Shown: positions 10,332-64,000 of the stretch, one piece after another
How the letters are laid out: every line of letters starts with the position of its first letter
Numbering within the stretch: the stretch's first letter is position 1
Virus record (IMG/VR): IMGVR_UViG_3300030380_004057
Coordinates: 12,965 to 76,964 of that record
Length of the DNA: 64,000 nucleotides
From: a virus
Strand: one strand, 5' to 3'
Position numbers and translations under genes: made by a program
Notes under the pieces: generated by a model
The model's input: the letters and a program-made list of their open reading frames with translations, nothing else
The model's database searches: none
Told to the model about the DNA's origin: nothing

Positions 10332-10356
10332 ATATTAACATTTAAAAATTATTATT

Positions 10357-25475: not shown

Positions 25476-26095
25476 TGCAAAGTTTATTTAATTTTATAGT
25501 ACAACCAAAAAATAAAAGATACGAAAACGAAGTTGATATTAATGGTAGCAAGCTTATTATTAATACAACTATGGACGATCATAAATACGTAAGTAGAATA
25601 GGTGTTATTAAATCAGTACCTAAAGTTGGTGATACAAATATTAAGGTTGGTGATGAAGTTATAGTACATCACAATGTATTTAGAAGATTTTATAATATGA
25701 AAGGCGAAGAAAAAAACAGCTCATCATATTTTAAAGAAGATTTATATTTTTGTTATTATGATCAAATATTTTTATACAAACAAGATAATGAGTGGAAAGC
25801 TCCTTTTGAGTTTTGTTTTGTAAAACCTATTGAAAATAAAAAACAATTTGTAACAGTTCAAAAAGAACGTCCTCGTGTTGGTATACTAAAATATGGTAAT
25901 AGTTCCTTAGATGCTCTTAAAGTGCACGAGGGAAGCCTTGTAGGGTTTAGCCCTAGCAGCGAGTATGAATTTATTATAGAAAATAACAGATTATACCGTA
26001 TGCGAACTAATGATATTACAATTAAATATGAATACAAAGGAGACGAAGTTGAATATAATCCAAGCTGGGCAAGTGGCTGTGGACGAACTTATTAA
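25475..26095 (+). CDS. GroES-like double-domain protein
   Basis: 206 aa; FIVQP...GVIKSVP...IKVGDEVIV and second FVKP...G.LKY...RM..NDI unit. Confidence 0.55.
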   Translation: MQSLFNFIVQPKNKRYENEVDINGSKLIINTTMDDHKYVSRIGVIKSVPKVGDTNIKVGDEVIVHHNVFRRFYNMKGEEKNSSSYFKEDLYFCYYDQIFLYKQDNEWKAPFEFCFVKPIENKKQFVTVQKERPRVGILKYGNSSLDALKVHEGSLVGFSPSSEYEFIIENNRLYRMRTNDITIKYEYKGDEVEYNPSWASGCGRTY

Positions 26096-39800: not shown

Positions 39801-41340
39801 CTTGGTTTATCAAAAAATTAAAATATCTCATGAACATGAGTTTAACACAGGTGAACAGATAGTTATACAAAATTTAGAAGAAGAGCCAATAGCAGTTTCA
39901 ACAGGTTTAACTGTACTTGAAACAAATCCTGTTAAGTCTAACCTAGATATATATTACGAGTCTTCAACTAGTGGTTTAATTAGGGATTTACATGCAGATA
40001 TAACAACTGGTAGTGCGGCTAAAGAAATAGCTTATTTTAACACGTTTATATTGGCAGGTGGCGGTAACGCAATAACTAATACACCTGGTATATATCACGT
40101 TGAAGAATCTAGAATAAAAGGTGAGTTTAATGGTAAATCAGTTGATTTTGGTGTTAGAGCTCATTTAGTAGATGATGAGTATGCTCAAAGAGTTAGAGGC
40201 AACGCTTTAATACACTCTGGAATATTTAACGCTAAAACAAAAGTAAACGAAACTAATCAGTTTTCTATTGGTGAAAATATAACTAAAGCTGTTGATATAC
40301 AAAACGGTAGCATACAAAAGCTATACGCTGAAGATACTAATTTAATTATATTTCAAGAAAATAAAGTTAGTAGAGCGTTAATAGATAAAGACGCTATATT
40401 TACACAAGAAGGCCAACCGCTCACAACCGCTTCAAGAGTTGTTATAGGACAAATTGGATCTTTTAGTGGTAAATATGGTATAAGTAAAAATCCTGAAAGC
40501 TTTGCGGTATACGCTGGCAGAAAATATTTTTCTGATAAAAATAGAGGTGTTATACTGCGATTATCGCAAGACGGATTAACACCTATATCAGATGCTGGTA
40601 TGCGTAGTTTTTTTAGGGATAATTTACAAAATGCTGTTAGAGTCTACGGTATGTATGATGAACAAAAAAATAAATACGTAATATCTCTGCAAAACAATCA
40701 AAGCGTAGCTTCTACTTATTTACCAGAATACGGAGATACTATTAATACTACTAATGTAACTAGGGATAACTACGCAACGCTATCGTATGATGAGTCATCA
40801 AAAGGTTGGGTTTCATTTTATACTTATAAACCTACTTTTGGATTTAGTATAAGTAACGAGTTTTATACTTATAATTTACAAAACTTATATCAACATTATA
40901 GAGATGATGTACAAAGGTGTATGTTTTATAAATCTGTTTTTACAGATCCAGCAAACGTAGAGTTTGTATTTAATGATCAACCAACAACTGTTAAAAATTT
41001 TCACACAATAGATTACGAAGGTACTACTGGTTGGAAAATGGCGTCAGCTGAAACAGATGTACACGTAGCTTTTCCTATATTAAGTAGTGATACATTTGTA
41101 TCATCACTTTCAATACCTGTAAATTTTGTTAATAAAGAAAACAAATATTACGGTCATATAAGAAATAATACTACAACAACTGCTTTAAATCAAATAGTAG
41201 GTGTTGATTTATCAGGTATAAAAGGATATTTTAATAAAGTTAAAATGCAGTATTGGAAACCTAGTGAAGAAATAGCTTCTTCTATTGATAAAGGAGAGCT
41301 GTATGCTGTAGGTAGTCAAACTGTTTATTCATCACAATAA
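36865..41340 (+). CDS. tail nozzle/stabilisation protein
   Basis: 1491 aa; F.RGKMNKDLDERL.P.GEYR.A.N start, YGISKNPES beta-propeller motif. Confidence 0.8.
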   Translation: MPKIQNSFLRGKMNKDLDERLVPKGEYREAQNILITQSEGSDVGAVENIKGNALAVPMPAITGNLETIGYFADTLNKKVYWFITDFTGDDGDVRTMSRAQSSNTCQILMADLNNTSEEAKIIVQGHFLNFSKNHLITGVNLIDDLLFWTDNYNQPRKINVTRAEANNTYYTKEDQISVAKVVPYLAPILHNSTGQGDSTTLTNNSDIASDYLKDKFVRFSYRYKYEDGEYTTMAPFTQIVFKPLNEGNIDNILTTSREETDVQDVYSKTIVGIMKNLYNQVEVRIPLPGDEYQTDASINWNNELRITKLEILIKESDQDVVKVVKEIDVNDNDSFTNLLETRPILQDNISTTYYRHVYKYVYKSEEPYKILEDKQITRVFDQVPLRAKSQEISGNRIIYGNFTENYELPTDSNGKSGINYVINNTSKGDTAISSIFNNNPQYNKSVYKNHSIKQKRKYQVGVVLIDKFGRQSSVILSTGDVDTINIPAVASDLSSFFNSSYSWANNHETIGKALSITFNDTTIVDQVYEGDITSEDYNPYGWYSYKIVVKQQEQEYYNIYTNHPADNWNNDSNSHDEVLGFSWISLYGNNINKIPRDVDEVDEVREGVAGSDTLVFPKVVKAPNFANNESVSGKDQDFIEVMTVGTAREQGLLTKGDRDKDRVHDFIMAKRNPLLAQIKSLNNTDPAFGLPIVNRVKYHIDLNVNDNNSDEKSYFQIGDGNSINPFIRVGQEVTLKAASEQTKHLTNIGKKVLNVRVDNDEQNDFDSKTIILDGDEIDNARGGSAMMQVGQIIEFRQGNNDSVSLTMNVSSNPTNTTIKVFGEDGFVLFNTFQQIQDNDNASDLIITGTNIQVGTSISNITTSSGFYTITLSQATSGTVTGFVDIVGGGNNSNLFMNQNSTNQNNILTTATIERHGNEFVVRRPILQKVELNENSTRTILHFDRRVFPDNIDTSANKNQCLALFDPLTIKQVETETEGSLVYQKIKISHEHEFNTGEQIVIQNLEEEPIAVSTGLTVLETNPVKSNLDIYYESSTSGLIRDLHADITTGSAAKEIAYFNTFILAGGGNAITNTPGIYHVEESRIKGEFNGKSVDFGVRAHLVDDEYAQRVRGNALIHSGIFNAKTKVNETNQFSIGENITKAVDIQNGSIQKLYAEDTNLIIFQENKVSRALIDKDAIFTQEGQPLTTASRVVIGQIGSFSGKYGISKNPESFAVYAGRKYFSDKNRGVILRLSQDGLTPISDAGMRSFFRDNLQNAVRVYGMYDEQKNKYVISLQNNQSVASTYLPEYGDTINTTNVTRDNYATLSYDESSKGWVSFYTYKPTFGFSISNEFYTYNLQNLYQHYRDDVQRCMFYKSVFTDPANVEFVFNDQPTTVKNFHTIDYEGTTGWKMASAETDVHVAFPILSSDTFVSSLSIPVNFVNKENKYYGHIRNNTTTTALNQIVGVDLSGIKGYFNKVKMQYWKPSEEIASSIDKGELYAVGSQTVYSSQ

Positions 41341-43901: not shown

Positions 43902-46900
43902 ATGGCAAACGGAAATAGTTTAGAAAATACTTTTGAAGTATATCCTCAAAATGATATATTTATAGAAGACAAGCTTTATCAATATAAAGATATACAAGCT
44001 CAAATAGATGCTAAAGCGCCTGGTTTTGAAAATATAAAAACAGTAACTGACTATGTTAAAGCTTGGGGTGATAAAGCTCGTGTTGAGCAAGGTAGAGATG
44101 CTTTTGGACAGTTAATTACAGGAGAAAAAGCAACAATGGTTGATGAACCTAGAGTTGAAGACGATGGATTAAGTGAGTGGAAACAAACTTATGGCAAAGA
44201 CTTTACTGTTAATGAAATGGAAGTTGAGTTTCAAGCGTATGCAAAAGCTATAAATCCAGATAAAGACCAATTATTAGATATAGAGTCTTTTATTAATCCT
44301 GAAAACGCAAACTACGATCCTGATTTATTAAAACCTAGAGCTCCTGAAAAATTTACAATAGAAATGGCTACAGCTGTAACACCTAAGATACAGCCATATA
44401 AAGAAGAGCTTAACCAAGCTAGACAGTATTTAGAGTCTAGACCAAGAAAAAAGAGCGATAAACCTGTAACAAGAGATCAAATAGAAAAACTTGCTAGAAC
44501 TATAATAGCTAATAATAAAGAAATAGAATATCAAGACGCAAACGCTAAAAGTTATTTAGATGATAAATCAGATAATTATAGAAAAGCTTTATTTGATTAT
44601 AAAAATCCTGATTTTGTAAAAGGAACTTATATAGATCGTGAGCTTTTAGATGACCAGCAAAAAGAAATATTAGACTTTGATAAGTCTATAGTTAATAGTT
44701 CTAGTTATAAAAATTATAACAATTTTAACGCTACTGTTAAAGACTTAAGTGGTGAATTAGTAAATTTAAAAAATCAAATTTTAGAAGTAGAAAAAAGACC
44801 AGAAATATTACAAAATAATATTGATGAATATAATAATTTAGTTAATAATTATAATACTAAACTAAACAATTATAAAAACATATATAGTGGTCTTAAAAAA
44901 TCTGCTGAAAATTTAGATGTTAAAGTTTTTCAAAGAAACAAAAAAGTAGAAGATTTTGAAAAAAACATAAAAATTGCTGAAGGACAAAAAAATTTAGAAG
45001 CATTATTAGATTATTTAAAAAGAGACTATAGCCAAATAAACAAAGTATTTGGAGCGCCAGGGTCTGGTGAGCCAGGGACTTTTGCAGTTGGTATGATTAA
45101 AGCTGGTATTGACATAGCTAACTTTGTTGATTTTCAAGTATTTGGTGATGGTGATGGTTTTATTTCAAAAGATTTAACAAGATCTTTTGATGCAGGTCAA
45201 ACAATTAGAGCTTATGAAGACAAGCAAAGAGGTAAATTTTACAAACCAGTAAAGTTTGAAAATGCTTTTAAAAGTATTTCTAATTTTGGTGAGTTTATGG
45301 TTGATCAAGCTGTTCAACAATCTTCGTTTTTAGCAGCGATGTCAATAAATCCTTATTTAACATTTGCTGTATCTGGTGGCTCTTATGTTTCTGATAGAAA
45401 AAAAGAAGCTAGTACTTTTGGTGGTAGAAGTTATACAGAAGGAGAACTTAGATTAAAAAGTATTGGATTTGGTGCTGTTGAATACGCGTTTGGTACTGCT
45501 CCAACTATGGGTATATTAAGAAGAGCCAGAGGTAGGCTTAATGATATTGGTAAAAGAGAGTTAACGCAAGGTTATAAAAATAGATTTGATTATATTTATA
45601 AAAACAGTCCTGTTTTAGCATGGGACATAGGTGTTGAATCTTCAACAGAAAGTATAACTACGTTTTTTCAAAACGCTATTGATAGTAAACCTTTACTCAA
45701 TGGTATGGGTGAAAGCGCTTTTGTAGGTGGTATGTTTGGTTTTACTTTTTCAGGCGCACCTATGTTATATGGAGCTGCTTTAAGTAATTTTTCTGACTAC
45801 GATACTTATCAAGGTTATAGAAATAACTTAAATATGATTGGAGTATTACAGAGAAATAATCTAAGCCCTTTTGTGAGTGAAAAAGATAAACAACAAAATC
45901 TTAAAACTATTAAAGATTTAGAAGCTGAAAATTTAGAAACATTAAATCAAATAGAAAATAATGTTAATGAAGAGTTAACTTCAGAGGGTTTTAATTTATA
46001 TCAAGCTGCTACTAATAAACAAGAGCAGTTAAGAATAGAAGCAGAACAAATACTAAACAACAAGTCTTTACCAAAAGATATAAAAGATAAAAAGTTAAAA
46101 CCATTAAAAGCTGAGTTTGATCAATTACAAGCAGGTAGAGATGCTTTTAGACAATCATTTAGAAAAACATTTCCTTTGCTTGATAAAAAAGAAAGGTCTA
46201 GATTAAATGATTTAGCTGTTAAAAATTTACAAGCTAAAGGAACTTCTGTGCCTAGCGAACAAGCAATACTACAAGAAGCTGAAAATATATATAATTCAGA
46301 AAGCATAGACAAAAATGCTGAGAACGATTTAAAAATAATTAATAATCTTGGTGAAGCGGGTGTAAATATAAGTTATAACTTATCTAATTCAAATAATCAA
46401 ATTATAAAAGATTATAAAGAAATATTAGATGGTCATGTTGCTAATCCTGATGTTGATTTAACACAAGCACAAGCAGACGCTAAATTTAATAGGTTTAAAA
46501 AAGGTATTGAAAATGGTACTATAAACGGTATAAACGAAGCTGTATTAGATAACAAATCTGGTAAAAATATTTATAATGTTTTAGTTTCTAAACAAAACTC
46601 TGTAGCAAACGGCAAACAACATACTGGTATACATGAAATAGGTCATACTATATTTACAGAAGCTTTTGCTAGTAATCCAAATGCTTTTGTAGATTTATCT
46701 AACGTTATATTAGAATACTTAAAAAAAGTAAATCCAGAAGCCTACACTAGGGTAGCTACTAGAACTGCTGGTCAAAATGCTGATGAAGTTTTAACTAATT
46801 TTTTAGAGGAAGTTGCAGATAATAATATTGATTTTAACAAAGCAAAAAACGCAGGGTTTTTAGGGCCAATTGGTAGAATATTAGGGCTTGGTGTTAGTAG

Positions 46901-54868: not shown

Positions 54869-56526
54869 CCATCGCAAGCAACGCAGTCTTCCATAGCTTT
54901 TGCGGCTATATCTCCACGTAGCACTGATTCAGTGCGCATATAATATAAAGTTTTAATACCTTTTTTCCAAGCATCTAAATGAACTTGGTTAATCCATTTT
55001 GGTGAAGCTTCAGCTGGAAAAGCTAAGTTTAAGCTAACTGATTGGTCAATATATTGTTGTCTTACGCCGGCTTGTCTTACTAGCTCTAACTGATTTATTT
55101 CTTTAAATGTTTTAAATACTTCTTTGGTATCTTCGTCTAAACCTTCTATGTCTTGCACCGAACCACCATCTGCTAATATTTTGTCCCATGTTTCTTTTGT
55201 ATTTAATTTTAATTCATTTAACACTTTAACTAGTGTTGGATTTTTTCTTATAAATGTACCTTTAGCTGACTGCTCTGTAAATACATTAGCAGCCCAAGGC
55301 TCTATTCCTGGTGAAACATTTCCCGCAAGCTTGCTATTACTAACAGTGGGAGCAATAGCACGCAAGTGAGTATTGCGAAAACCAGTACCAACACACCAGA
55401 GAGGCTCGCCAAACTCTTCAGCAAGAGCCATACTAGCACGTTCACTTTCGATTTTGATTTGGCTGAATATTCTTCTTGTTTCATATTGTGACAATAGACC
55501 CTCAAATGGTAAACCTTTTTCTTGTAAATACGTATGCCAGCCGAGTACACCTAAACCTAATGCTCTACCTTTTTCAGCAGATCTTACAGAGTTTTCAAAA
55601 CCTTTTCTGTATTTAGCTCTTTGTATAAACTCTTCAAGCACACCGTCAAGAAACCATATTGAGTCATAAATTATATTAGTATTTTTCCACTCATCGTGTT
55701 TAGCTAGGTTTAAACTAGACAGACAACAAACAAAGCTATGATTTTCATCTGTGTGCAATACTATTTCACTACATATATTAGTCATATGTACTTTTAATGC
55801 GTTGTCTTTGTAAGCTGCTGGATTTTGCTTATTTGTATTTCCTTTAAATAAAATATAAGGTTCGCCAGTTGCTTTGCGCTTTTGTAAAAGTTTACTCCAT
55901 TTTGTTCTTGCTTTAATATCTCCTGTAGTAAGCTTTCGCATAAACTTATCACCGACAACTGCACATTGATGTAGGTTGAGAGACTGTCTATTGACGTCTC
56001 CTTTTGGTTCTCTAATCTCGAGCCATTCTTCAAAATCGTCATGTTCAATGTTGATATTAACTGATGCAGCTCCTCGTCTGACAGCACCTTGATTAGTGGC
56101 AAGTATAGTTGAATCATATATTTTACAAAACGGTACAACTCCGTCGGGTCTAATTTGATTTACACCGATACCAACTCCACCGCCGTGTTTAGCGAGTAGC
56201 ATCATCTCTAAATTTTTTTGACCTATGTCAATAATGCTGTCAGCCACGTCAATACCAAAACAGCTAATAGGCAAACCCCTATCAGTGCCAGTATTACTAA
56301 GCACAGGCGATGCAAGGCATAACCATCCTTTCCAAATGTATTCAAAAAATACTTCTGCCATTTCGGTCTTCTGTAATCTTTTCGCAACTGTTCTAGTAAC
56401 TCTTTCGTACGCTTGTCTTGGTGTTTCGCCATTATATAAATAACCTCCTCCTATTGTTTTTTTATAAACTTCGTTATCACCCCACTCAGGATAATCAACT
56501 CCTTTTTTCCACTGGTTGTTCCACAT
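54865..56526 (-). CDS. nrdA: ribonucleotide reductase class I alpha subunit
   Basis: PISCF, GGGVG, TNICSEI, CCLSSLN, AIAPT, C-terminal CVACDG. Confidence 0.95.
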   Translation of the reverse strand: MWNNQWKKGVDYPEWGDNEVYKKTIGGGYLYNGETPRQAYERVTRTVAKRLQKTEMAEVFFEYIWKGWLCLASPVLSNTGTDRGLPISCFGIDVADSIIDIGQKNLEMMLLAKHGGGVGIGVNQIRPDGVVPFCKIYDSTILATNQGAVRRGAASVNINIEHDDFEEWLEIREPKGDVNRQSLNLHQCAVVGDKFMRKLTTGDIKARTKWSKLLQKRKATGEPYILFKGNTNKQNPAAYKDNALKVHMTNICSEIVLHTDENHSFVCCLSSLNLAKHDEWKNTNIIYDSIWFLDGVLEEFIQRAKYRKGFENSVRSAEKGRALGLGVLGWHTYLQEKGLPFEGLLSQYETRRIFSQIKIESERASMALAEEFGEPLWCVGTGFRNTHLRAIAPTVSNSKLAGNVSPGIEPWAANVFTEQSAKGTFIRKNPTLVKVLNELKLNTKETWDKILADGGSVQDIEGLDEDTKEVFKTFKEINQLELVRQAGVRQQYIDQSVSLNLAFPAEASPKWINQVHLDAWKKGIKTLYYMRTESVLRGDIAAKAMEDCVACDG

Positions 56527-56779
56527 CTTCTCTTTTGTTTATATCTTTTAATTGTTCAACTATTTTATCCCACTCATCTTTACCAATATGTATTTGAAAA
56601 GATGTTAGCATACCTTGTGTAAATGTTTCTAATGCATTTAGTTTTACTAAGGCTTTTTTTAATGCAGATCCTAGTATATCTACTTTACGCTGCATATCTA
56701 TTAATTTACTTTCTTTCATTTTAAAAAATGTATTATCCACGCAACTAAGCCGTTTATATTTAAAACAACTAAGTTCCAT
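56495..56779 (-). CDS. hypothetical protein (start probably 56719)
   Basis: MKESKLIDMQRKV... helical ORF. Confidence 0.6.
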   Translation of the reverse strand: MELSCFKYKRLSCVDNTFFKMKESKLIDMQRKVDILGSALKKALVKLNALETFTQGMLTSFQIHIGKDEWDKIVEQLKDINKREDVEQPVEKRS

Positions 56780-57096
56780 TGTTTTCTATAAGTTACTTGA
56801 ACTAACACGCAACTAAAACCTGCTATAAATAATATAGGTTCTAATGTCCAGTGTGCTGCTAGTATCATACCTGCACCCATATAACCTATGCGTACTGGTA
56901 AATTTTTACTACCAAATATCTTCAAAATCTTCACCTTCATTAGCTTTGCTATAATCAGTTGGACGGATCGCGAAAAAATCTGTATGGGTGTGACCACCAG
57001 TAAGATGATAAAACCAATCAAGTACATCAGCGCTAGCTCTATCAAAGCTAAAGAACCTTCTTTTATCATTGTAACCCAACTCCATAAGTTTTTCAT
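56716..57096 (-). CDS. small membrane protein (start uncertain, possibly 56940)
   Basis: Hydrophobic C-terminal 70 aa fills the gap after nrdB; N-terminal part overlaps nrdB in +1 frame. Confidence 0.55.
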   Translation of the reverse strand: MKNLWSWVTMIKEGSLALIELALMYLIGFIILLVVTPIQIFSRSVQLIIAKLMKVKILKIFGSKNLPVRIGYMGAGMILAAHWTLEPILFIAGFSCVLVQVTYRKQWNLVVLNINGLVAWIIHFLK

Positions 57097-57877
57097 TTGT
57101 CCTTTTTCTTATAAATTGTTTTAAATCGTTTGCTTTAAGGTTTTCAATATCACCCATTTCAAACATTTTATCTATATATTTTTCTTCAAGATCAATCATT
57201 ATTTTAGCAGCTGTGTATATATCTTCTTTACATTCTTCTTTTAATGTAGGTATTTCTTCACACATATGTCTAAAAAGTTGACAACCCATTTTACTATGTA
57301 ATGATTCGTCTCTTACAGACCATTTCATTTGCTGTCCTATTCCTTTGAGAAGATTTCGTAATTGAAAAGAATATAAAACAGCGAAAGCTGAATACAAACT
57401 AACGCCTTCTGCGAAGGCAGAAAATATTGCCAAGCTTCTACCAATGCCAACAGGATCATCACCGTCATAAGCAACCAAGTTATCAAACCTTTGCGATGTT
57501 GCCGGCTCGTGAAGAAACGCTTCAAAGTCTTCAAGTCCAAGTGTTTCATTTAAATAACTATATGCAACAGCGTGTATTGTTTCTTGTGAGCCGAACATCA
57601 TAGCCATCTGTTGCACTTCGTGTTTTGGAAACCATGATACGACTTTTTGTGTCCAGTAATCAGATACAGCACATTCAGTTTGAGCAAAACCTAATAGTAT
57701 ATTACCAACTAAGTTTTTTTCAGCTAAAGTTAGTTTTTCGTTCCAGTCTTTAACATCACCTGACATAGGTATTTCTGTATGTAACCAAAACGCTTGAGCT
57801 TGCTTTAACCAACCTTCGGTATAATATATAGGGTATTCAAACGGTTTGTAAGGTATTCTTTCTTTAAATAGACTCAT
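56909..57877 (-). CDS. nrdB: ribonucleotide reductase class I beta subunit
   Basis: FW...EI..S.D..DW, ETIH..AY, EG, RDESLH, DFF. Confidence 0.95.
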   Translation of the reverse strand: MSLFKERIPYKPFEYPIYYTEGWLKQAQAFWLHTEIPMSGDVKDWNEKLTLAEKNLVGNILLGFAQTECAVSDYWTQKVVSWFPKHEVQQMAMMFGSQETIHAVAYSYLNETLGLEDFEAFLHEPATSQRFDNLVAYDGDDPVGIGRSLAIFSAFAEGVSLYSAFAVLYSFQLRNLLKGIGQQMKWSVRDESLHSKMGCQLFRHMCEEIPTLKEECKEDIYTAAKIMIDLEEKYIDKMFEMGDIENLKANDLKQFIRKRTNEKLMELGYNDKRRFFSFDRASADVLDWFYHLTGGHTHTDFFAIRPTDYSKANEGEDFEDIW

Positions 57878-58025
57878 TATTATAAGGTAATTCTAGTGCT
57901 ATATCTACAAATGGTAGATAAAACACATAAGTTAAACGAGTTTGTTCTTCATAAGCTCTTACACCAAACAATATGCCTGGGTAAAAACCTAATGACAAAC
58001 TCCAATTCCATTTTTCTTTATCCAT
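57864..58025 (-). CDS. small hypothetical protein (53 aa)
   Basis: Manual ORF MDKEKWNWSLSLGFYPGILFGVR... Confidence 0.55.
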   Translation of the reverse strand: MDKEKWNWSLSLGFYPGILFGVRAYEEQTRLTYVFYLPFVDIALELPYNNESI

Positions 58026-58191
58026 AAACTTTTATGTTATACTGGTCTTGATACTTAACCAGTTCTTTATATTTTATTCTTCCTCTTTGTTGCCAAGACC
58101 ATTTAACCCATTTATCAATTTGGCGCTCAGCGTATTTTTTCCTAGCTATTATTTTTGCAAGCTTAGGATTAACTCTACTGTTTCGTCGCAT
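58018..58191 (-). CDS. small basic hypothetical protein (57 aa)
   Basis: Manual ORF MRRNSRVNPKLAKIIARKKYAERQIDKW... Confidence 0.45.
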   Translation of the reverse strand: MRRNSRVNPKLAKIIARKKYAERQIDKWVKWSWQQRGRIKYKELVKYQDQYNIKVYG

Positions 58192-58598
58192 TGTTTTTGA
58201 TTTTGTGGTTTGTACAAAGTTGTTTTTATTTTGTTATCAGTTAAATACTTTTTAAATAGCTTCCAACGTATTGGAAAAGATTCGTTGGCTCTACCTTTAC
58301 ATTCAATAATAAAATTACTACCTATAAAATCTGGTGTATATTTAATTGGTAGTATTTTTTTATTACCTCTTTCTTTATATTCACCTTTACCATTAGCAGC
58401 TCTAGCTATACAGCTGTTTTTAAAATTAAAACCTTTTACTATTTCGTAAGTTTTACCCTCGTATTTAGCTTTTATTTTAGCTTTTTTTAGTGCTTGATAC
58501 ATATAACGCTCAAGACCTGAAGCAAATTTAATACCGTCATACGTTACTTTTTTTGCTTGTACAGGTCCGCGTTTTTTTCTTTTATAGATCTTCTTCAT
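58149..58598 (-). CDS. PD-(D/E)XK endonuclease, T7 endonuclease I/DUF1064-like resolvase
   Basis: F.SGLE, KYTPDF, IIECKG. Confidence 0.8.
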   Translation of the reverse strand: MKKIYKRKKRGPVQAKKVTYDGIKFASGLERYMYQALKKAKIKAKYEGKTYEIVKGFNFKNSCIARAANGKGEYKERGNKKILPIKYTPDFIGSNFIIECKGRANESFPIRWKLFKKYLTDNKIKTTLYKPQNQKQCDETVELILSLQK

Positions 58599-58884
58599 CT
58601 TCTAACAATTCATCTAAGTTATCATTGAACTTTTTTTGTTTGTTAATCATGCACTCTTCAATCTCATCACGTAAGCAAGCTCTTGCAGCTTGTATGTATA
58701 GCAAAGCATCCATTATTTCTTCTTGTACATCAATTAAGAAATCGTTAAGGTCTTTGTCTTTACCTTCAACTTCTTCCATCATCATTGCTCCGTATTTAGC
58801 TTGACCAATAAGACTACGTTGGTCTATCTTTTCGATAACTTGCTCTACGATTTTATCGTTAGTCTTTACTACGTATTTATTCAT
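58582..58884 (-). CDS. all-alpha NTP pyrophosphatase-like protein
   Basis: RS..G..KYG and QEEIMDALLY motifs. Confidence 0.6.
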   Translation of the reverse strand: MNKYVVKTNDKIVEQVIEKIDQRSLIGQAKYGAMMMEEVEGKDKDLNDFLIDVQEEIMDALLYIQAARACLRDEIEECMINKQKKFNDNLDELLEDEEDL

Positions 58885-59656
58885 CTTTTACAAATGTTCC
58901 GTTAATCATTTTACCTGTTCGTTTACTAATAACTTTGTACGCATCAGATATACAAGTTTCTATATCAGTTCCGTGTAAATGCGCTAGATTTGTTAATACA
59001 ACAACCATATCACCTATTGCGTCATTTATCTCATCATGATCATTGTTTAGTAATGCTTTAGCTAATTCACCAGCTTCTTCTTGAAGCTTAACATATTGAG
59101 TATGTGTATTACCTTTATCATATAAGCCTCTGTCTTGAGCCCACTCTCTGATTCTACTAAACATCGCATCATCTTCGCATTGAACCATAGTTGGTTCTGT
59201 AAACATATCTCTATTATCATAAGCTCTTGCAAAAGCTTTATTGTAAACATAACACCTATTGTTGTTGTACATAGATGTTTTAACATTATCCATTATCCAA
59301 TTAACTGTTTGTTTAGTAATATGTAAGGTACCGTGCTCTGTTTCCCACTTCATACCTATATTATCTAACAATTGTCCTTTTAGTTTATTAACTGGACATG
59401 GAAACGTAGTAGTTTGTTCTGTTACGTTTATATTCATTTTACTAGATTTAATTAATTCATTATATTTCTTACGATCAACTCTATAGCCGTAAGACTTTTG
59501 AAGTTCTATCTCTTTCTCTGATATATAATCTATATCATCGGACTGATCAAGAACTTCATATTCGTCTGGGTTATAACCCTGTGTTAACGTAACTCTCGTA
59601 TTAAGATTACGTGTAACACCAATCTTTTTACCCGGTATGTGATATAAATAATACAT
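58877..59656 (-). CDS. GIY-YIG-like domain fused to MazG pyrophosphatase
   Basis: YYLYH...KIGVT....R N-terminus; KLQEEAGEL...DAIGD C-terminus. Confidence 0.8.
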   Translation of the reverse strand: MYYLYHIPGKKIGVTRNLNTRVTLTQGYNPDEYEVLDQSDDIDYISEKEIELQKSYGYRVDRKKYNELIKSSKMNINVTEQTTTFPCPVNKLKGQLLDNIGMKWETEHGTLHITKQTVNWIMDNVKTSMYNNNRCYVYNKAFARAYDNRDMFTEPTMVQCEDDAMFSRIREWAQDRGLYDKGNTHTQYVKLQEEAGELAKALLNNDHDEINDAIGDMVVVLTNLAHLHGTDIETCISDAYKVISKRTGKMINGTFVKDE

Positions 59657-60327
59657 TATAATTTATCGTTGTATAAATGTAAATTGTGCGCATAGTGATA
59701 ATATTCACCAGCCTCAATATTTAACCTGTCTGCAACTAATTTTTGTATCATACTAAAACAGTATTGGTCATTACAAAAGCCGTACCAGAGATCATTAGAA
59801 CGCATTAAAACAGCCATGTTTAATGTATTGTTTACAATTGTAAATTGTATTGCATAGGTACACGGTGTATCTTTACTGTAATACTTATGTTCTTTACCAT
59901 CATATATACTTATTGCGGCGTGTCTAGTATTATTGTTGTGTTTAAGCTTAGCTACAACGTAGTCTATCTGATCATTACGATACATTTGCCAACCGTAGTT
60001 AGACATTACATTACCCTTGCTGTCAGCCATACGTTCCCATATCGGTGGTATTTTACCGTATAGTTCACCTAGCTTTTTAATATTAGGATCACCAGATAAA
60101 TACCACTGCCACTCTGCTTCAGCATAATCAGGTTTCCAATTACGTTCTTTGTTAAATATATAATTTTCTAGTGGTTTTTTTAACGTAAAACCTACGTTGA
60201 ATAAAGCTTTAGTATCACTGAATTCTATACCATCAGTTATTATTTTATCATAAAAATAATTATAAGCTTCGTCTGCATTATGAAATTTTCTGCGCATATT
60301 TATTATAATAATATTTGTAATACTCAT
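59656..60327 (-). CDS. thymidylate synthase-family enzyme, dCMP hydroxymethylase-like (start probably 60297)
   Basis: SNYGW, DTPCT, MRSNDLWYGFCND, NLHLY. Confidence 0.8.
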   Translation of the reverse strand: MSITNIIIINMRRKFHNADEAYNYFYDKIITDGIEFSDTKALFNVGFTLKKPLENYIFNKERNWKPDYAEAEWQWYLSGDPNIKKLGELYGKIPPIWERMADSKGNVMSNYGWQMYRNDQIDYVVAKLKHNNNTRHAAISIYDGKEHKYYSKDTPCTYAIQFTIVNNTLNMAVLMRSNDLWYGFCNDQYCFSMIQKLVADRLNIEAGEYYHYAHNLHLYNDKL

Positions 60328-60529
60328 ATAGCTTTATCCATATAGTTATACTACCATACGCTTCTGGCGATCTATGAGTTTTATTGTTTAATTTAATATC
60401 TACATACCATGTTCCTTCACCTGTAGCAAAAGGGGAAATAAAAATACCATTGTTTATACACCAATGGTAAGCTTTTTTTTCTTCACTAGTTTGTGAGTAT
60501 AACCCCATTACATTTATTTTTCTAGGCAT
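60278..60529 (-). CDS. hypothetical protein
   Basis: 83 aa ORF in operon. Confidence 0.6.
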   Translation of the reverse strand: MPRKINVMGLYSQTSEEKKAYHWCINNGIFISPFATGEGTWYVDIKLNNKTHRSPEAYGSITIWIKLYEYYKYYYNKYAQKIS

Positions 60530-62251
60530 TTATTCCCATGGCATTGGCTCTTCGCTGGCTACTTGTGCTAAGTCTGGTATAAAGCAACCTGACCTTGGCT
60601 CCCATGTAAAGAAAGCTTCAGCACCATTTTCACCTAAGTTTTGAAATTTTACTTTTAATACTTTTACTTTTGTGTTTTTAAGTTCATAATCCCTATGTAC
60701 TAGTAAACCGTGATAACTAGCATCATACCACTCACCACCGCCTTTAATATTATACATATTAGGCTCTTCAATTTTACCATCACTAGTTTTATACATTTTA
60801 GTTGGATGTGCTACAATAAAAACAAGTACGTCATATTTTTTAGCAAATGTTTCTATTTTAGTTAAATACTCCATAGTGTATAAGTTAACATCTAATGATG
60901 TTGCGTTTTTGTCTCTAACTTTATTAAATGGATCAATGACTAAACATTTAATACCTTTACGTTTAACAAGCTCTGCGCCTTTACGTAATACAGACTCAAG
61001 AGTATATTTTTCCATATCTATAAAAAAGAAGTTATCATTTACGTGATTAGCAACTTCTTTCCATTTAGCAGAACCAATATCATCTCTGTTTGGCATATCA
61101 CCCCATACTTTACGCATTAACTTATGCGCGTGTAAATAGTTTGGCGCGTTTTCTGGCGACGCAAATGCTGTCTTCCAGCTATAATTTTTATTATAACCTA
61201 CAACCATTTGATCTACAAAATCAGATTTACCTGAACTTGGTATGCCTGTTACTGTAATAAACTGACCTGTGTATGTAGAAAATATTTGATCAAAGTTAGA
61301 TAAACCTATTTGATAACCAGCTTTAAAACCGTTTTTAACAAAGTCTGTTACATCATTTTCTATGTCTTTAAATGTTGTAACATTTTCTAACGGATACGGT
61401 CTAGCTTGTTTAATAGCTTGCCTAAGCTTTTCTTTACCATGCTCCATTAAATATTCGTTAGCATCTTTGCATCCTTCAAAGTCTGCTAAAAAACAAACTT
61501 CAGCACCTAGCCTACGAACAAGCTCAGCACGTAATGCTAAACCAGGATCGTCTGTATCAACTGCTAATATTATTTTAGTTTTATCTTCAAAATAATCTAT
61601 ACAGTTATCAAGATAATCTAAATTATTATGACTAAGCGTAGCACCGTTAGGTACTGATATTGCATTTTTAATACCGGCTTCATGTAACGCTAGCACATCC
61701 ATCTCACCTTCAGTTATAATACAATTGTCATAACCTACTATACTATTAATATTATAAAATACTTTTTCAGCGCCTTTGTATAATTTAAAGTTTTTTCTAC
61801 CGTCGCGGTATTTTATGTTTATTAGCTGATCACCTACGTGATAAGTAAAATGTATCGTGTTCTCTTTTTTACCGGTTTGTGGCATATACTCAGAGCCCTC
61901 ACCAACTTGTAAGTTGATAAGGGTTTCTTCTGAGATGCCTCTACTTTTAAACCATTCAGCCACTTTGGTTCTAGGTATATTATAATCAGTTAAATCTATT
62001 GATGGTCTAACATAATCTTTATTACTAGCACCTTTACGTTGATAAGTGTGTAGTTGAAAAGTAGTGTTGCAATTGTGACAAGTACCGAGACCACGTTCCC
62101 AATCATAGCTAGCACATTTAGCTTTTTGATTTTTAGGTTTCCTAGTATGTGAGCAAAGAGGACATATACCTTGTTTCTTACCTTGCTCTAGGCCATATTG
62201 ATTGAGCTTGTCAATCAAAAATCCATTAATCTCTGTTGTTTCTACTTGCAT
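60530..62251 (-). CDS. DNA primase-helicase (T7 gp4/Twinkle-like)
   Basis: CPLC..CHNC Zn finger, TOPRIM EGEMD/DTD, Walker A GIPSSGKS, LVIDP, VAHP. Confidence 0.95.
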   Translation of the reverse strand: MQVETTEINGFLIDKLNQYGLEQGKKQGICPLCSHTRKPKNQKAKCASYDWERGLGTCHNCNTTFQLHTYQRKGASNKDYVRPSIDLTDYNIPRTKVAEWFKSRGISEETLINLQVGEGSEYMPQTGKKENTIHFTYHVGDQLINIKYRDGRKNFKLYKGAEKVFYNINSIVGYDNCIITEGEMDVLALHEAGIKNAISVPNGATLSHNNLDYLDNCIDYFEDKTKIILAVDTDDPGLALRAELVRRLGAEVCFLADFEGCKDANEYLMEHGKEKLRQAIKQARPYPLENVTTFKDIENDVTDFVKNGFKAGYQIGLSNFDQIFSTYTGQFITVTGIPSSGKSDFVDQMVVGYNKNYSWKTAFASPENAPNYLHAHKLMRKVWGDMPNRDDIGSAKWKEVANHVNDNFFFIDMEKYTLESVLRKGAELVKRKGIKCLVIDPFNKVRDKNATSLDVNLYTMEYLTKIETFAKKYDVLVFIVAHPTKMYKTSDGKIEEPNMYNIKGGGEWYDASYHGLLVHRDYELKNTKVKVLKVKFQNLGENGAEAFFTWEPRSGCFIPDLAQVASEEPMPWE

Positions 62252-62261
62252 TTAATTTAAT

Positions 62262-62576
62262 TTAAAATGGTAAATCGTCTTCTACCTGTGGCGCAGCCTG
62301 CGGTTGAGGCATTGCTGCTGGTTGATCTAGCTTAACTGGTTCTGGAAAAGTACCGTTAGTCCAAATAACCTTTGTATTACCGAGGTAAGTTTTAGCTACT
62401 TTAGCTTCTCTTTCCTCTTTTGTTTGATCTACAATAACTGGACCGTGATTGCCGAACTGATCGACTTCATCATTAACGGTTATAGCTATTGGCAAGTACT
62501 TACCTTTTTTACCATTGATAATTTTATCTTTAGGTATATTACTAAGGTTTATACTTGTTTTAATAATTCCTGCCAT
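62262..62576 (-). CDS. single-stranded DNA-binding protein (putative)
   Basis: 104 aa, GKKGKYL, acidic tail DDLPF. Confidence 0.75.
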   Translation of the reverse strand: MAGIIKTSINLSNIPKDKIINGKKGKYLPIAITVNDEVDQFGNHGPVIVDQTKEEREAKVAKTYLGNTKVIWTNGTFPEPVKLDQPAAMPQPQAAPQVEDDLPF

Positions 62577-62577
62577 A

Positions 62578-62796
62578 CTATACGTATTGATTTATTTGAT
62601 TAAACATCCTTTGTAACTGCTCTTTATTAGCATTTGTATTTCTTCTTAAATTGTCTACAGCTTTAACATGGTTTTGATTTTTGTAGAAATTATCTACAGA
62701 AGTTTCTAGTCCTGTTATACTGCATACTTTTAATTGAGGTTTTCTAGTTCTTGGCATATTATAAGGTTTTATTAATAAAATATTGTTTAGGGTCAA
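62578..62796 (-). CDS. hypothetical protein (start probably 62757)
   Basis: MPRTRKPQLKVCSITG... Confidence 0.55.
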   Translation of the reverse strand: MTLNNILLIKPYNMPRTRKPQLKVCSITGLETSVDNFYKNQNHVKAVDNLRRNTNANKEQLQRMFNQINQYV

Positions 62797-63490
62797 ATCC
62801 TTTTTGTTTGTAGAATAATTTATATGCTTCTACAGCACGCTGAACTTTATCTTGACCTTTTGCATAAAATTCAGGTGAACAATCAAATATACCTAGTTGA
62901 TGAGTATTTTTATCTATTACAATAAAAATCATTTCATAACCAAATAATTTGCTATAAATATAAGCTTGACTGTCATAGTTATATTTAGATGCTGACCATT
63001 TAAAACGAGTTATATCGTTTGTAGTTTTCAGATCAATAACTAATTTTTCATTGTGGTTAATAATATCTGCTTTACCTTTCCACATCTCACCTTCAAGCTC
63101 TATAATACCTGGTGTTTCATATTCTGTATTACTATCTCTTATCATTGCTTGACATACTTTATTATCTAACATAGTGTCAGATAATTTTTCTATCGAATCA
63201 ACTTCATGTTGTAGTAAACATAATTCACCACCAGACATCTCTTTGTAAACTTTAGTATTTCTAGTTGACGAAGGTATTACTCGGTATTTCTTCAACTTAT
63301 CTGGTTCAAGTATAGCGGTATGGAAATATCCGCCAACTAGAAAAGCAGGCCTAGGCTCGCTAGGCTTTCCTAAAGCTAAAGGATTTGTAAGTAATGTTCC
63401 GATATCAGAATTACTAAGATACTTTTTACCAAAGCTACCGTAGTAATATTCATCATCTCGCAACTTATTAATTACATCTTCTTTTTTCAT
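62759..63490 (-). CDS. RecE/exonuclease VIII-like PD-(D/E)XK nuclease (DUF3799-like)
   Basis: LSNS, G..FH..ILEP, KGKAD, IDLKTT, Y..QA..Y. Confidence 0.85.
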   Translation of the reverse strand: MKKEDVINKLRDDEYYYGSFGKKYLSNSDIGTLLTNPLALGKPSEPRPAFLVGGYFHTAILEPDKLKKYRVIPSSTRNTKVYKEMSGGELCLLQHEVDSIEKLSDTMLDNKVCQAMIRDSNTEYETPGIIELEGEMWKGKADIINHNEKLVIDLKTTNDITRFKWSASKYNYDSQAYIYSKLFGYEMIFIVIDKNTHQLGIFDCSPEFYAKGQDKVQRAVEAYKLFYKQKGFDPKQYFINKTL

Positions 63491-64000
63491 TAGAGTGTTT
63501 TAAGTGCCTGTTCTTGCGCAGGCGTTAATTGATACTTTGCTTTGATAGCATCTATTTTACCACCAGACTTGATATAGCTTTTAGCTTTATCTAAGCTATC
63601 TAGCTTATCCTTATCGTGGTTATTAGTAGCATCACTATCTTTAGTATCATCAATTAGGAATAAATTTCCTAACGCATACTTCTTCGCATAACTCGACGCG
63701 CTACCAAACTGCTGTGGTGCCTGCATACCTTTTTGGTTTACATCAACACCGACAATAGATGTAGCGTGTATAGCACCGTCACCGTCAGTAATACTAGCAG
63801 TTGATTTAATAATAGGCATAGGCCCATCAACAACTAATTCTTCACTAATTGTAACTGTAACTCCTAACTTGTTAAGAAAGGGTTTTGTAGCTTCGAGAAT
63901 GTCTTCGGCTGAACGGAAGTAGTATTTGCCGAATGAGTTAAATCTACTCTTCTTCGATTTAAACTCTGTTTGAATTTGTGATAATTTTTGGTATATGGTC
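63490..64000 (-). CDS. ERF family ssDNA annealing protein (start just outside window)
   Basis: Frame open to window end: NSFGKYYFRSAEDILEA..P and GSASSYAKKYAL. Confidence 0.9.
   Translation of the reverse strand, partial: TIYQKLSQIQTEFKSKKSRFNSFGKYYFRSAEDILEATKPFLNKLGVTVTISEELVVDGPMPIIKSTASITDGDGAIHATSIVGVDVNQKGMQAPQQFGSASSYAKKYALGNLFLIDDTKDSDATNNHDKDKLDSLDKAKSYIKSGGKIDAIKAKYQLTPAQEQALKTL

What the first reader, a model, noticed from the sequence alone, without database searches (positions are those of the whole stretch)
58582..60327. Probable cytosine-modification cassette: dCMP hydroxymethylase-like enzyme plus two NTP pyrophosphatases
Seen: RSNDLWYGFCND places Asp at the position of E. 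coli ThyA Asn177, and IW...A...G.V.SNYGW matches T4 gp42 as I recall it (RSNDVVFGFRND). Established: Asp at this site selects dCMP, Asn selects dUMP; T4 pairs gp42 with a dCTPase. Adjacent genes encode MazG-like and a second all-alpha pyrophosphatase. Inference: genome contains 5hmC or 5mC instead of C; no glycosyltransferase is visible in this window.
Basis: partly seen in the sequence, partly recalled or inferred. Interest (0 to 1): 0.7.

Follow-up and report, generated by a model that had tools for sequence, protein, structure and literature searches.

The report
Phage dCMP hydroxymethylase–MazG gene cassette
An uncultured marine phage carries a shortened thymidylate-synthase relative whose active site matches the phage T4 enzyme that makes 5-hydroxymethyl-dCMP, next to a MazG pyrophosphatase, so its DNA probably contains 5-hydroxymethylcytosine; this is a known phage trick, seen here in a common ocean phage group and not yet shown chemically.

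Summary
Three co-directional minus-strand genes fill 58582-60327, and every quoted motif is present and aligns with T4 gp42.

- **TS-fold protein (223 aa):** it carries all published marks of a dCMP hydroxymethylase: Asp at ThyA-177, Asp three residues before the catalytic Cys, Ser-x-Tyr, and Asp (not Asn) at ThyA-169. My alignment reproduces controls for ThyA, dUMP hydroxymethylases, the RB69 5-hydroxy-dCMP synthase and the Xp12 5mC enzyme. 5hmC is therefore favoured over 5mC.
- **Second gene:** a three-domain protein (GIY-YIG-like, unknown, MazG). It is a plausible dCTPase, but the substrate is unknown.
- **Third gene (100 aa):** an all-helical, divergent MazG paralog that keeps only the second metal motif. 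Pyrophosphatase activity is unproven.
- **Not found in the ~66-kb genome:** dNMP kinase, glycosyl- or carbamoyltransferase, dCMP deaminase, DHFR, ThyX, DNA polymerase. Full replacement of C is therefore an inference.
- **Context:** the cassette is invariant in 74 of 74 related IMG/VR contigs and all three genes are under purifying selection.

This scan met the same cassette before in sister genomes, with the same reading. Verdict: a new member of a known kind, of moderate interest.

The parts
59656..60327 (-). TS-fold enzyme, predicted dCMP hydroxymethylase (223 aa; the true start may be Met11 at 60297, giving the 213-aa form common among homologs). Key residues: E72, W97, S109-N-Y111, R135, D153-T-P-C156, T157, R176-S-N-D179, D187, H217, Y219. 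It ends 4 residues after Y219.
   Evidence: Pfam PF00303. Best PDB match T4 gp42, then MilA. Signature table against references. T4 residue mapping and dN/dS 0.13. Homologs are 213-227 aa.
59471..59656 (-). Domain 1 (residues 1-62) of the 259-aa protein: GIY-YIG-like (beta-beta-alpha-beta-alpha). Invariant Y2, Y5, H6, G9, K11, G13, R21, E32, E49.
   Evidence: AF2 model. I-TevI catalytic domain 1ln0, Z 5.9, rmsd 2.9, 60 residues aligned. Weak Pfam T5orf172 hit, E 0.02. Conservation.
59213..59449 (-). Domain 2 (residues ~70-148) of the 259-aa protein: small alpha/beta domain of unknown function, with conserved 'TEQTTTFP' and 'R..YVYNKAF' motifs.
   Evidence: AF2 model, pLDDT mostly 74-91 per 10-residue block. 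No informative match.
58880..59179 (-). Domain 3 (residues 160-259): MazG-type all-alpha NTP pyrophosphohydrolase. The 'EE.GE' residues and D212, G215, D216 of 'E..D.IGD' are invariant, and E209 is at least 90% conserved. Candidate dCTPase.
   Evidence: Pfam PRA-PH and MazG. PHROG MazG-like. 1vmg Z 10.4. DCTPP1 and S-2L MazG among the Foldseek matches. Motif conservation. dN/dS 0.29 for the whole gene.
58582..58884 (-). 100-aa all-helical protein, a divergent MazG paralog. Invariant D10, R23, G27, Y31, E56, D59. Motifs 'RS..G..KYG.T' and 'QEELMDA..Y'. The first MazG EExxE motif is not conserved.
   Evidence: Family alignment A1. AF2 pLDDT 90, helical hairpin. Natural chimeras with the MazG domain at equivalent positions. 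hhalign E 0.0015, probability 17%, same register. dN/dS 0.17.
54865..57877 (-). Context: class I ribonucleotide reductase large (54865-56526) and small (56909-57877) subunits, which supply deoxynucleotides.
   Evidence: Pfam. Conserved downstream of the cassette in 70-72 of 74 loci.
60530..62251 (-). Context: primase-helicase (Toprim + DnaB-like). It is the only Walker-A protein in the genome.
   Evidence: Pfam. Walker-A scans.

Best explanation
This is a pre-replicative cytosine-modification module of the T4 type, in minimal form. The 223-aa TS-fold enzyme binds dCMP through Asp187. Cys156 attacks C6, and a one-carbon unit is taken from methylene-tetrahydrofolate. Asp153, with Ser109 and Tyr111, positions a water molecule, and the enzyme has no C-terminal tail to seal the site for hydride transfer. 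The exocyclic methylene intermediate is therefore hydrated, giving 5-hydroxymethyl-dCMP. The MazG domain of the next protein most likely hydrolyses dCTP to dCMP plus pyrophosphate, which feeds the hydroxymethylase and depletes the canonical nucleotide. The phage ribonucleotide reductase supplies the deoxynucleotides. 5hm-dCMP must then be phosphorylated by a host kinase or an unrecognised phage kinase and incorporated by the host replicase, because no phage polymerase was found. No transferase is present, so the base would stay as undecorated 5hmC. What is shown: fold, active-site residues, MazG fold and motifs, gene order, purifying selection. What is inferred: the product, the MazG substrate, the phosphorylation step, and incorporation into DNA.
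For: The TS fold and the best match to T4 gp42 come. All three published dCH signature elements (PMC6400193) are met. The three-position product code of PMC13326640 reads Asp/Asp/Asp, as in T4 gp42. The same alignment correctly shows Asn169 and Glu at -3 for the RB69 5hodCMP synthase, Asn177 for the SPO1, ViI and phiW-14 dUMP hydroxymethylases, Leu143 and Asn177 for ThyA, and Asn at -3 with a long tail for the Xp12 5mC enzyme. 16 of 24 named T4dCH residues are conserved. MetaGPA found that TS and PRA-PH domains co-occur on cytosine-modified contigs, and that Asp177 and a non-His residue at position 147 mark modified contigs (PMC8670742). Here position 147 is Thr. The cassette is invariant in 74 of 74 related contigs. 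dN/dS is 0.13-0.29. The genome has no ThyX, DHFR or dCMP deaminase.
Against: No dNMP kinase was found. The primase-helicase is the only Walker-A protein, the ViI, phiW-14 and RB69 kinases give no phmmer hit, and AAA_28 gives no hit. In T4, and in the 2026 5hodC work, a phage kinase is needed for substantial incorporation. One phosphate-binding Arg (T4 Arg124') is His, and several folate Glu-tail contacts (Arg59, Arg177, Arg220) are lost. The MazG substrate cannot be read from the fold, and multi-domain MazG proteins are common in phages with no reported modification. The conserved synteny lies within one phage lineage, so it is not independent evidence of coupling. The tree is weakly resolved. 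No chemical or sequencing evidence of modified bases was obtainable.
Confidence: 0.6

Rival explanations
1. The enzyme does make 5hm-dCMP, but the base is processed further into an undescribed hypermodified cytosine. The processing proteins would be ones not recognised here, such as the unknown middle domain, orf100, or the unannotated early proteins of 143-205 aa.
For: In the cultured phages with the nearest TS homologs, the gene sits beside a carbamoyltransferase (BF503P2), a glucosyltransferase plus UDP-galactopyranose mutase (Lactobacillus phage ATCCB), or sugar-nucleotide genes (Enterococcus phage 9183). Several early proteins here have no PHROG or Pfam match.
Against: No transferase, kinase or sugar-nucleotide gene was detected in this genome. 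The accessory genes of relatives (cupins, KdsA/B-like, methyltransferase) are absent here and are not DNA transferases by Pfam.
Confidence: 0.12
2. The module reshapes nucleotide pools without substantially replacing C in virion DNA. It could drain dCTP and dCMP to stall host replication, or act as an anti-defence measure. Without a dedicated kinase, little 5hm-dCTP would form.
For: No dNMP kinase was found. No phage DNA polymerase was found. MazG proteins are common in phages with no reported modified DNA.
Against: Every characterised Asp-type phage TS homolog feeds a DNA modification. In MetaGPA, Asp177 enzymes mark contigs that are modified throughout. The enzyme is strongly conserved across an abundant lineage.
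Confidence: 0.1
3. The enzyme is a dCMP methylase of the Xp12 type, and the DNA carries 5-methylcytosine.
For: Asp at ThyA-177 also converts TS into a dCMP methylase (Liu and Santi 1992, cited).
Against: The Xp12 enzyme has Asn at -3 of the Cys, 61 residues after Tyr209 and an adjacent DHFR. The window enzyme has Asp at -3, 4 residues after Tyr209 and no DHFR in the genome. In T4 dCH, Asp145 is required for hydroxymethylation, and the TS C-terminal tail seals the site for hydride transfer.
Confidence: 0.05
4. The enzyme is a flavin-dependent 5-hydroxy-dCMP synthase like RB69 gp48.
For: It is Asp177-type, has an acidic residue at -3, and has a very short C-terminus, as RB69 gp48 does (12 residues after the Tyr209 column).
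Against: The published diagnostic D169N is absent. The window has Asp179 in 'RSND', whereas RB69 has 'RSQN'. No arabinosyl- or glycosyltransferase genes are present.
Confidence: 0.04
5. It is an ordinary thymidylate synthase or a dUMP hydroxymethylase that supplies dTMP or hm-dUMP.
For: Source annotations call homologs 'thymidylate synthase'. The gene lies beside RNR, as ThyA or ThyX genes often do in phages.
Against: Asp, not Asn, is at position 177. Thr, not His or Asn, is at position 147. Asp, not Leu, is at -3. There is no C-terminal tail. The protein falls outside the well-supported ThyA and dUMP-hydroxymethylase clades.
Confidence: 0.03

Closest known systems
Bacteriophage T4 gp42, deoxycytidylate 5-hydroxymethyltransferase (EC 2.1.2.8; PDB 1B5E, 6A9A)
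   Same: TS fold. Identical residues at Glu60, Ile81, Trp82, Ser94, Tyr96, Arg123', Asp145, Cys148, Arg168, Ser169, Asp171, Asp179, His216 and Tyr218. Thr follows the Cys. There is no TS-type C-terminal tail.
   Different: Only about 30% identical. The C-terminus is shorter still (4 residues after the Tyr, against 28). Arg124' is His. The folate Glu-tail contacts Arg59, Arg177 and Arg220 are not conserved. The genomic setting lacks gp1 kinase, glucosyltransferases and a phage polymerase.
T4 dC-to-hmC replacement system (gp56 dCTPase, gp42, gp1 dNMP kinase, alpha/beta-glucosyltransferases, EndoII/denA)
   Same: A hydroxymethylase is paired with an all-alpha NTP pyrophosphatase. The GIY-YIG-like domain fused to MazG recalls T4 EndoII, which is a GIY-YIG nuclease acting on host cytosine DNA (from my own knowledge; speculative).
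   Different: No kinase or transferase was found. The pyrophosphatase is a three-domain MazG protein rather than gp56. A second, degenerate MazG paralog follows it.
Short Asp-type TS homologs of gut phages (Bacteroides phage BF503P2 TSb, 226 aa, 43% identity; Agathobaculum phage AB434P2, 220 aa)
   Same: Same active-site signature and the same short C-terminus (17 and 5 residues after the Tyr).
   Different: BF503P2 has a second TS paralog, a carbamoyltransferase, an AAA_28 kinase-like protein and dut in the same cluster. That is the MetaGPA 5-carbamoyloxymethylcytosine type. None of these genes is in the window's genome.
MazG / DCTPP1 (RS21-C6) all-alpha NTP pyrophosphohydrolases (PDB 1VMG, 7MU5, 6SQZ, 7ODY)
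   Same: Residues 160-259 share the fold (Z up to 10.4) and both metal-binding motifs.
   Different: The domain is fused to an N-terminal GIY-YIG-like domain and an unknown middle domain. The substrate is unknown.
Xanthomonas phage Xp12 TS homolog (5mC genome, MT664984)
   Same: Asp at ThyA-177, catalytic Cys, Ser-x-Tyr.
   Different: Xp12 has Asn at -3 of the Cys, a ThyA-length C-terminal tail, and adjacent DHFR and dCMP deaminase genes. The window enzyme has none of these.

Membership tests
dCMP hydroxymethylase (T4 gp42 type) within the TS superfamily | Thymidylate-synthase fold | tested here: met
   PF00303, E 1.2e-23, above the curated cut-off. PDB 1b5e, E 2.7e-18.
dCMP hydroxymethylase (T4 gp42 type) within the TS superfamily | Catalytic Cys (T4 Cys148 / E. 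coli Cys146) | tested here: met
   Cys156 aligns in every alignment made.
dCMP hydroxymethylase (T4 gp42 type) within the TS superfamily | Asp at T4-179 / ThyA-177 (cytosine specificity) | tested here: met
   Asp187. The dUMP enzymes used as controls show Asn in that column.
dCMP hydroxymethylase (T4 gp42 type) within the TS superfamily | Asp or Glu three residues before the catalytic Cys (activates the water) | tested here: met
   Asp153-Thr-Pro-Cys156. ThyA has Leu and Xp12 has Asn at this position. The rule is from PMC6400193 and PMC13326640.
dCMP hydroxymethylase (T4 gp42 type) within the TS superfamily | Ser or Thr two residues before the catalytic Tyr (Ser94-x-Tyr96) | tested here: met
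   Ser109-Asn-Tyr111.
dCMP hydroxymethylase (T4 gp42 type) within the TS superfamily | No TS C-terminal tail | tested here: met
   4 residues follow Tyr219, against 55 in E. coli ThyA and 28 in gp42. The short form is conserved across the family at 213-227 aa.
dCMP hydroxymethylase (T4 gp42 type) within the TS superfamily | Both phosphate-binding arginines from the partner subunit (T4 Arg123', Arg124') | tested here: inconclusive
   Arg135 is kept. The second position is His136 throughout the family.
dCMP hydroxymethylase (T4 gp42 type) within the TS superfamily | Enzyme converts dCMP and CH2-THF to 5hm-dCMP and THF | not testable with these tools
   This needs a biochemical assay.
5-hydroxy-dCMP synthase (RB69 gp48 type) | Asn at ThyA-169 (D169N diagnostic) | tested here: not met
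   The window has Asp179. The RB69 control shows Asn in the same alignment.
dCMP methylase (Xp12 type) | Non-acidic residue at -3 of the Cys, a ThyA-like C-terminal tail, and DHFR supply | tested here: not met
   Asp at -3, a 4-residue tail, and no DHFR in the genome. Xp12 shows Asn, 61 residues and an adjacent DHFR.
T4-type complete dC-to-hmC replacement pathway | Phage dNMP kinase that accepts 5hm-dCMP (gp1-like) | tested here: not met
   There is no Walker-A protein besides the primase-helicase. The ViI, phiW-14 and RB69 kinases give no phmmer hit. PF13521 gives no hit.
T4-type complete dC-to-hmC replacement pathway | dCTPase | tested here: inconclusive
   The MazG fold and its motifs are present, and dCTPases are among the structural neighbours. 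The substrate cannot be inferred.
T4-type complete dC-to-hmC replacement pathway | DNA glycosyltransferase or other hmC transferase | tested here: not met
   None among the ORFs scanned with PHROGs or Pfam. No carbamoyltransferase.
MazG / all-alpha NTP pyrophosphohydrolase superfamily (259-aa protein, residues 160-259) | Four-helix MazG fold with EExxE and ExxD metal motifs | tested here: met
   PF01503 and PF03819 both above their cut-offs. 1vmg Z 10.4. The 'EE.GE' residues and D212, G215, D216 of 'E..D.IGD' are invariant, and E209 is at least 90% conserved.
MazG / all-alpha NTP pyrophosphohydrolase superfamily (100-aa protein) | Detectable homology to MazG | tested here: inconclusive
   hhalign E 0.0015 but probability 17%. 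Natural chimeras join it to MazG at equivalent positions. There is no direct Pfam or PDB hit. Fold searches return only generic helices.
MazG / all-alpha NTP pyrophosphohydrolase superfamily (100-aa protein) | Both metal-binding motifs | tested here: not met
   Only 'EELMD' (E55, E56, D59) is conserved. The position of the first EExxE motif is variable across the family.
   No match in the genome at E <= 10.
GIY-YIG nuclease superfamily (residues 1-62 of the 259-aa protein) | GIY-YIG core fold and motifs | tested here: inconclusive
   I-TevI Z 5.9 over 60 residues. T5orf172 E 0.02, below its cut-off. 'YLY...IGVT...R...E' is conserved.

The most novel reading that the evidence does not exclude
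This may be a kinase-less, transferase-less minimal hmC pathway in which the accessory proteins do more than hydrolyse dCTP. The GIY-YIG-like domain fused to MazG would nick or degrade cytosine-containing host DNA, as T4 EndoII does, while the MazG domain removes dCTP. The degenerate MazG paralog (orf100), or the unknown middle domain, would supply the missing step. That step could be tuning MazG specificity so that 5hm-dCTP is spared, or helping to phosphorylate 5hm-dCMP. If so, it would be a new protein solution for replacing a base using the host replicase.
Probability: 0.12. Interest if true: 0.6.

Novelty: new member of a known kind. Interest (0 to 1): 0.35.

Why it matters
If the prediction holds, a very abundant group of marine phages that probably infect Flavobacteriia carries 5-hydroxymethylcytosine. 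At least 435 IMG/VR contigs and thousands of metagenomic proteins belong to this group. This matters in four ways.

- **Defence evasion:** it would change expectations about how these phages evade restriction and CRISPR systems in the ocean.
- **Method bias:** it would affect how marine viral DNA behaves in methods that rely on restriction enzymes, bisulfite or nanopore sequencing.
- **A compact enzyme:** the family is the shortest natural form of a dCMP hydroxymethylase seen here.
- **An open question:** how 5hm-dCMP reaches the triphosphate without a phage kinase is testable. The answer could be a permissive host kinase or a new phage protein.

The chemistry itself is textbook, and the link between Asp-type TS homologs, PRA-PH/MazG domains and modified viral contigs is already published (MetaGPA).

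Tried and rejected
- **Near-identical phage search:** megablast of 54000-63000 against GenBank phages gave no match.
- **orf100 fold searches:** Foldseek on the PDB gave nothing and VIA-wide gave only generic long helices. The A1 profile against the PDB gave only a chance hit. The Atlas gave unnamed viral clusters.
- **Middle domain of the MazG protein:** the Atlas scores were below 0.8, which is a lead only.
- **Xp12 primer search:** the exact-pattern search in IMG/VR found nothing. Xp12 was then reached through its accession, taken from PMC7653180.
- **Phylogeny:** the 19-sequence tree has long branches and weak deep support. It only shows that the protein lies outside the ThyA and dUMP-hydroxymethylase clades.
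- **Own-genome family searches with no match:** carbamoyltransferase, AAA_28, DUF1599, ThyX, DHFR, dCMP deaminase, PolA and PolB.
- **Kinase search:** phmmer with three phage dNMP kinases gave nothing below E = 1.
- **Sequencing runs:** all holders are stored as contigs, so they say nothing about base modification. RNA libraries hold short pieces of the cassette, but DNA carry-over cannot be excluded.
- **'Second TS gene' rejected:** the second TS match in the genome is not a paralog. It is the same gene from a strain variant at the wrapped contig end.
Full report
**What is there.** The window is bases 12965-76964 of a 76,964-bp IMG/VR virus record. On the minus strand, 58582-60327 holds three tightly packed ORFs: 59656-60327 (223 aa), 58877-59656 (259 aa, its start sharing one base with the upstream stop) and 58582-58884 (100 aa). 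The order of the wider block is exonuclease, SSB-like protein, primase-helicase, an 83-aa ORF, these three genes, a DUF1064 resolvase-like gene, and then RNR small and large subunits.

**Nature of the contig.** A self-comparison shows that genome positions 2-10696 are collinear with 66816-76964 at about 84% identity, and the match reaches both contig ends. The assembly therefore ran once around a circular or permuted genome of about 66.3 kb and continued into a strain variant. The 'second' TS match in the genome is this variant's ortholog together with its whole neighbourhood, not a paralog. The variant copy gives a natural comparison. dN/dS is 0.13 for the TS-like gene, 0.29 for the MazG-like gene and 0.17 for the 100-aa gene, so all three are real genes under purifying selection.

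**Checking the observation.** The 223-aa protein matches Pfam Thymidylat_synt (E 1.2e-23). Its best solved relatives are T4 dCMP hydroxymethylase (1b5e, E 2.7e-18) and then the CMP hydroxymethylase MilA, both ahead of any true thymidylate synthase.

**Which product?** Two papers give sequence rules.
- Park et al. 2019 (PMC6400193) define a hydroxymethylation signature from the T4 ternary complex and its mutants. It consists of Asp or Glu three residues before the catalytic Cys (the D145N mutant is inactive), Ser or Thr two residues before the catalytic Tyr, and Asp179 for cytosine. They also show that dCH lacks the TS C-terminal tail that seals the site for hydride transfer.
- Lee et al. 2026 (PMC13326640) add that Asn at ThyA-169 marks flavin-dependent 5-hydroxy-dCMP synthases such as RB69 gp48.

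I fetched reference genes from annotated records: E. coli thyA, RB69 td, T4 gp42, RB69 gp48, SPO1 gp29, the ViI and phiW-14 homologs, and Xp12. I aligned them with the window protein. The controls behave as published:
- ThyA has Leu at -3 and Asn177.
- The three dUMP hydroxymethylases have Asp at -3 and Asn177.
- RB69 gp48 has Glu at -3, Asn169 and Asp177.
- Xp12, whose virion carries 5mC (PMC7653180), has Asn at -3, Asp177 and 61 residues after Tyr209. It sits next to a dCMP deaminase and a DHFR.

The window protein reads Asp153 at -3, Ser109-x-Tyr111, Thr157, Asp179 (ThyA-169) and Asp187 (ThyA-177). That is identical to T4 gp42 at these positions. In all, 16 of 24 residues named in the T4 structure paper are conserved. 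It ends four residues after Tyr219. The genome has no DHFR, dCMP deaminase or ThyX. The enzyme is therefore of the hydroxymethylase type, not the methylase, hydroxylase or ThyA type.

Some differences from T4 remain. His replaces the second phosphate-binding Arg, and three folate Glu-tail contacts are lost. The short C-terminus is a family trait: thousands of homologs are 213-227 aa. It also recurs in an Agathobaculum phage enzyme (5 residues after the Tyr) and in Bacteroides phage BF503P2 TSb (17 residues). A 19-sequence tree is poorly resolved at depth. It does place the family outside the well-supported ThyA and dUMP-hydroxymethylase clades.

**The second gene.** Only residues ~160-259 are MazG. 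They match Pfam PRA-PH and MazG and PHROG MazG-like families. The top 14 structural matches are all MazG, HisE or dCTPase, led by 1vmg at Z 10.4, and Foldseek also lists DCTPP1 and the cyanophage S-2L MazG. In the related contigs the 'EE.GE' residues and D212, G215 and D216 of 'E..D.IGD' are invariant, and E209 is at least 90% conserved. The AF2 model (pLDDT 83) shows two further domains:
- Residues 1-62 have a GIY-YIG-like topology. The only non-helical structural hit is the I-TevI catalytic domain (Z 5.9, 60 residues), and there is a weak T5orf172 Pfam hit (E 0.02).
- Residues 70-148 form a small alpha/beta domain with no informative match.

MetaGPA reported that TS and PRA-PH domains co-occur on cytosine-modified contigs, which fits a dCTPase role. 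However, multi-domain MazG proteins are common in phages with no reported modification, so the substrate stays an inference.

**The third gene.** The 100-aa protein has no direct Pfam or PDB match. An exhaustive search found 295 representative relatives. Their alignment shows invariant D10, R23, G27, Y31, E56 and D59, with the motifs 'RS..G..KYG.T' and 'QEELMDA..Y'. AF2 gives a confident helical hairpin (pLDDT 90), but fold searches return only generic helices.

Three database proteins are natural chimeras of this family and the neighbouring MazG domain. P0405 and P0309 join the two at equivalent positions ('KYGATMMEE|IGEL' and 'EIEEC|I'), while P0387 is an unequal fusion. A profile-profile comparison gives the same register, though weakly (E 0.0015, probability 17%). 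In that register 'EELMD' corresponds to the second MazG metal motif, and the first EExxE motif is not conserved. Homology to MazG is plausible, and pyrophosphatase activity is unproven.

**Is the pathway complete?** No dNMP kinase is detectable. The primase-helicase is the only Walker-A protein. The kinases that flank the TS homologs of ViI, phiW-14 and RB69 give no hit, and AAA_28 gives none. No glycosyl- or carbamoyltransferase was found among the ORFs scanned, and there is no family A or B DNA polymerase.

In contrast, the nearest cultured-phage homologs sit in richer clusters:
- Bacteroides phage BF503P2 has a carbamoyltransferase, an AAA_28 protein, a second TS-like gene and dut.
- Lactobacillus phage ATCCB has a glucosyltransferase and a UDP-galactopyranose mutase.
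- Enterococcus phage 9183 has a thymidylate kinase, a dUTPase and sugar-nucleotide genes.

Relatives of the window's own lineage carry extra genes past RNR: a DenV-like glycosylase, JmjC and cupin proteins, KdsA- and KdsB-like enzymes and a methyltransferase. None is a kinase or a recognisable DNA transferase, and none is in this genome.

**Phage and habitat.**
- The terminase is 44-45% identical to those of the listed Flavobacterium 'elemo' podoviruses, and the other matches below 60% include Cellulophaga, Tenacibaculum and Maribacter phages. It is 63% identical to that of an uncultured spring-water virus.
- A crAss-type muzzle protein is present.
- G+C is about 32%.
- 435 IMG/VR contigs encode a TS relative. 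In the 80 fetched, the cassette order is invariant: 74 of 74 loci with enough flank. This is one lineage, so the synteny is not independent support for functional coupling.
- Marine metagenomes from several studies hold the stretch. Marine RNA libraries hold short pieces, including exact matches on the TS gene and orf100, but DNA carry-over cannot be excluded.

**Earlier notes and verdict.** Earlier notes of this scan describe the same cassette in sister genomes, and three follow-ups reached the same reading. One first-reader note there read the specificity residue as Asn, but my alignments place Asp in that column.

The most likely reading is a minimal T4-type pathway that yields undecorated 5hmC. 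The enzyme identity is well supported. The dCTPase role, the phosphorylation step and the extent of replacement are inferred. This is a new member of a known kind.

Noticed in passing
whole record: genome 2-10696 versus 66816-76964 (window 53852-64000): The two contig ends are the same ~10-kb region at about 84% identity. The assembly wrapped around a circular or permuted genome of about 66.3 kb into a strain variant. The 76,964-bp length and the 'linear' label therefore overstate the genome, and genes in this region appear twice.
   Followed up: yes
window 13174-14724 (+) and 25475-26095 (+): The phage encodes a GroEL-type chaperonin (PHROG E 4.6e-137) and a GroES-like co-chaperonin (E 2.4e-22).
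   Followed up: no
window 36865-41340 (+) and 43902-52016 (+): A 1491-aa protein matches the crAss-virus muzzle protein at both ends (PF25731, E 1.8e-19; PF25729, E 2.2e-4). It is followed by a 2704-aa protein with no family match. This suggests a distant crAss-like virion architecture.
   Followed up: no
proteins P0405, P0309, P0387 (metagenomic relatives of window 58582-59179): These are natural or assembly chimeras between the 100-aa family and the adjacent MazG domain. Two of them (P0405, P0309) have junctions at equivalent helix positions. This points to recombination between tandem paralogs.
   Followed up: partly
L001 (Bacteroides phage BF503P2, OP172671.1, 32503-38533): The cluster holds a carbamoyltransferase (PF16861 and PF02543), an AAA_28 protein, two Asp-type TS homologs and dut. 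It looks like the MetaGPA 5-carbamoyloxymethylcytosine pathway in a cultured gut phage. The carbamoyltransferase is annotated only as a hypothetical protein.
   Followed up: partly
L101 (Agathobaculum phage AB434P2, OP172633.1, 3838-4500): This gene is annotated 'deoxyuridylate hydroxymethyltransferase', but it carries the cytosine-type signature (Asp177, Thr147, Asp at -3). The annotation is probably wrong about the substrate.
   Followed up: partly
related loci, e.g. L055:9977-12596, L075:11611-12282, L051:15788-16597, L086:1878-2444: Relatives of this phage carry accessory genes that are absent here: JmjC and cupin proteins, a KdsB-like cytidylyltransferase, a KDO-8-P-synthase-like enzyme, a SAM methyltransferase, and a DenV-like pyrimidine-dimer glycosylase (in 33 loci).
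   Followed up: partly
window 60278-60327: The 83-aa ORF (60278-60529) overlaps the annotated start of the TS-like ORF by 50 nt. Many homologs begin at the equivalent of Met11 (213 aa), so the true start may be 60297.
   Followed up: no
genome 10742-13176 (just upstream of the window; L004): A sigma-70-family factor (251 aa) and an ATP-dependent DNA ligase (283 aa) lie in the 2.3 kb of unique genome not covered by the window.
   Followed up: no
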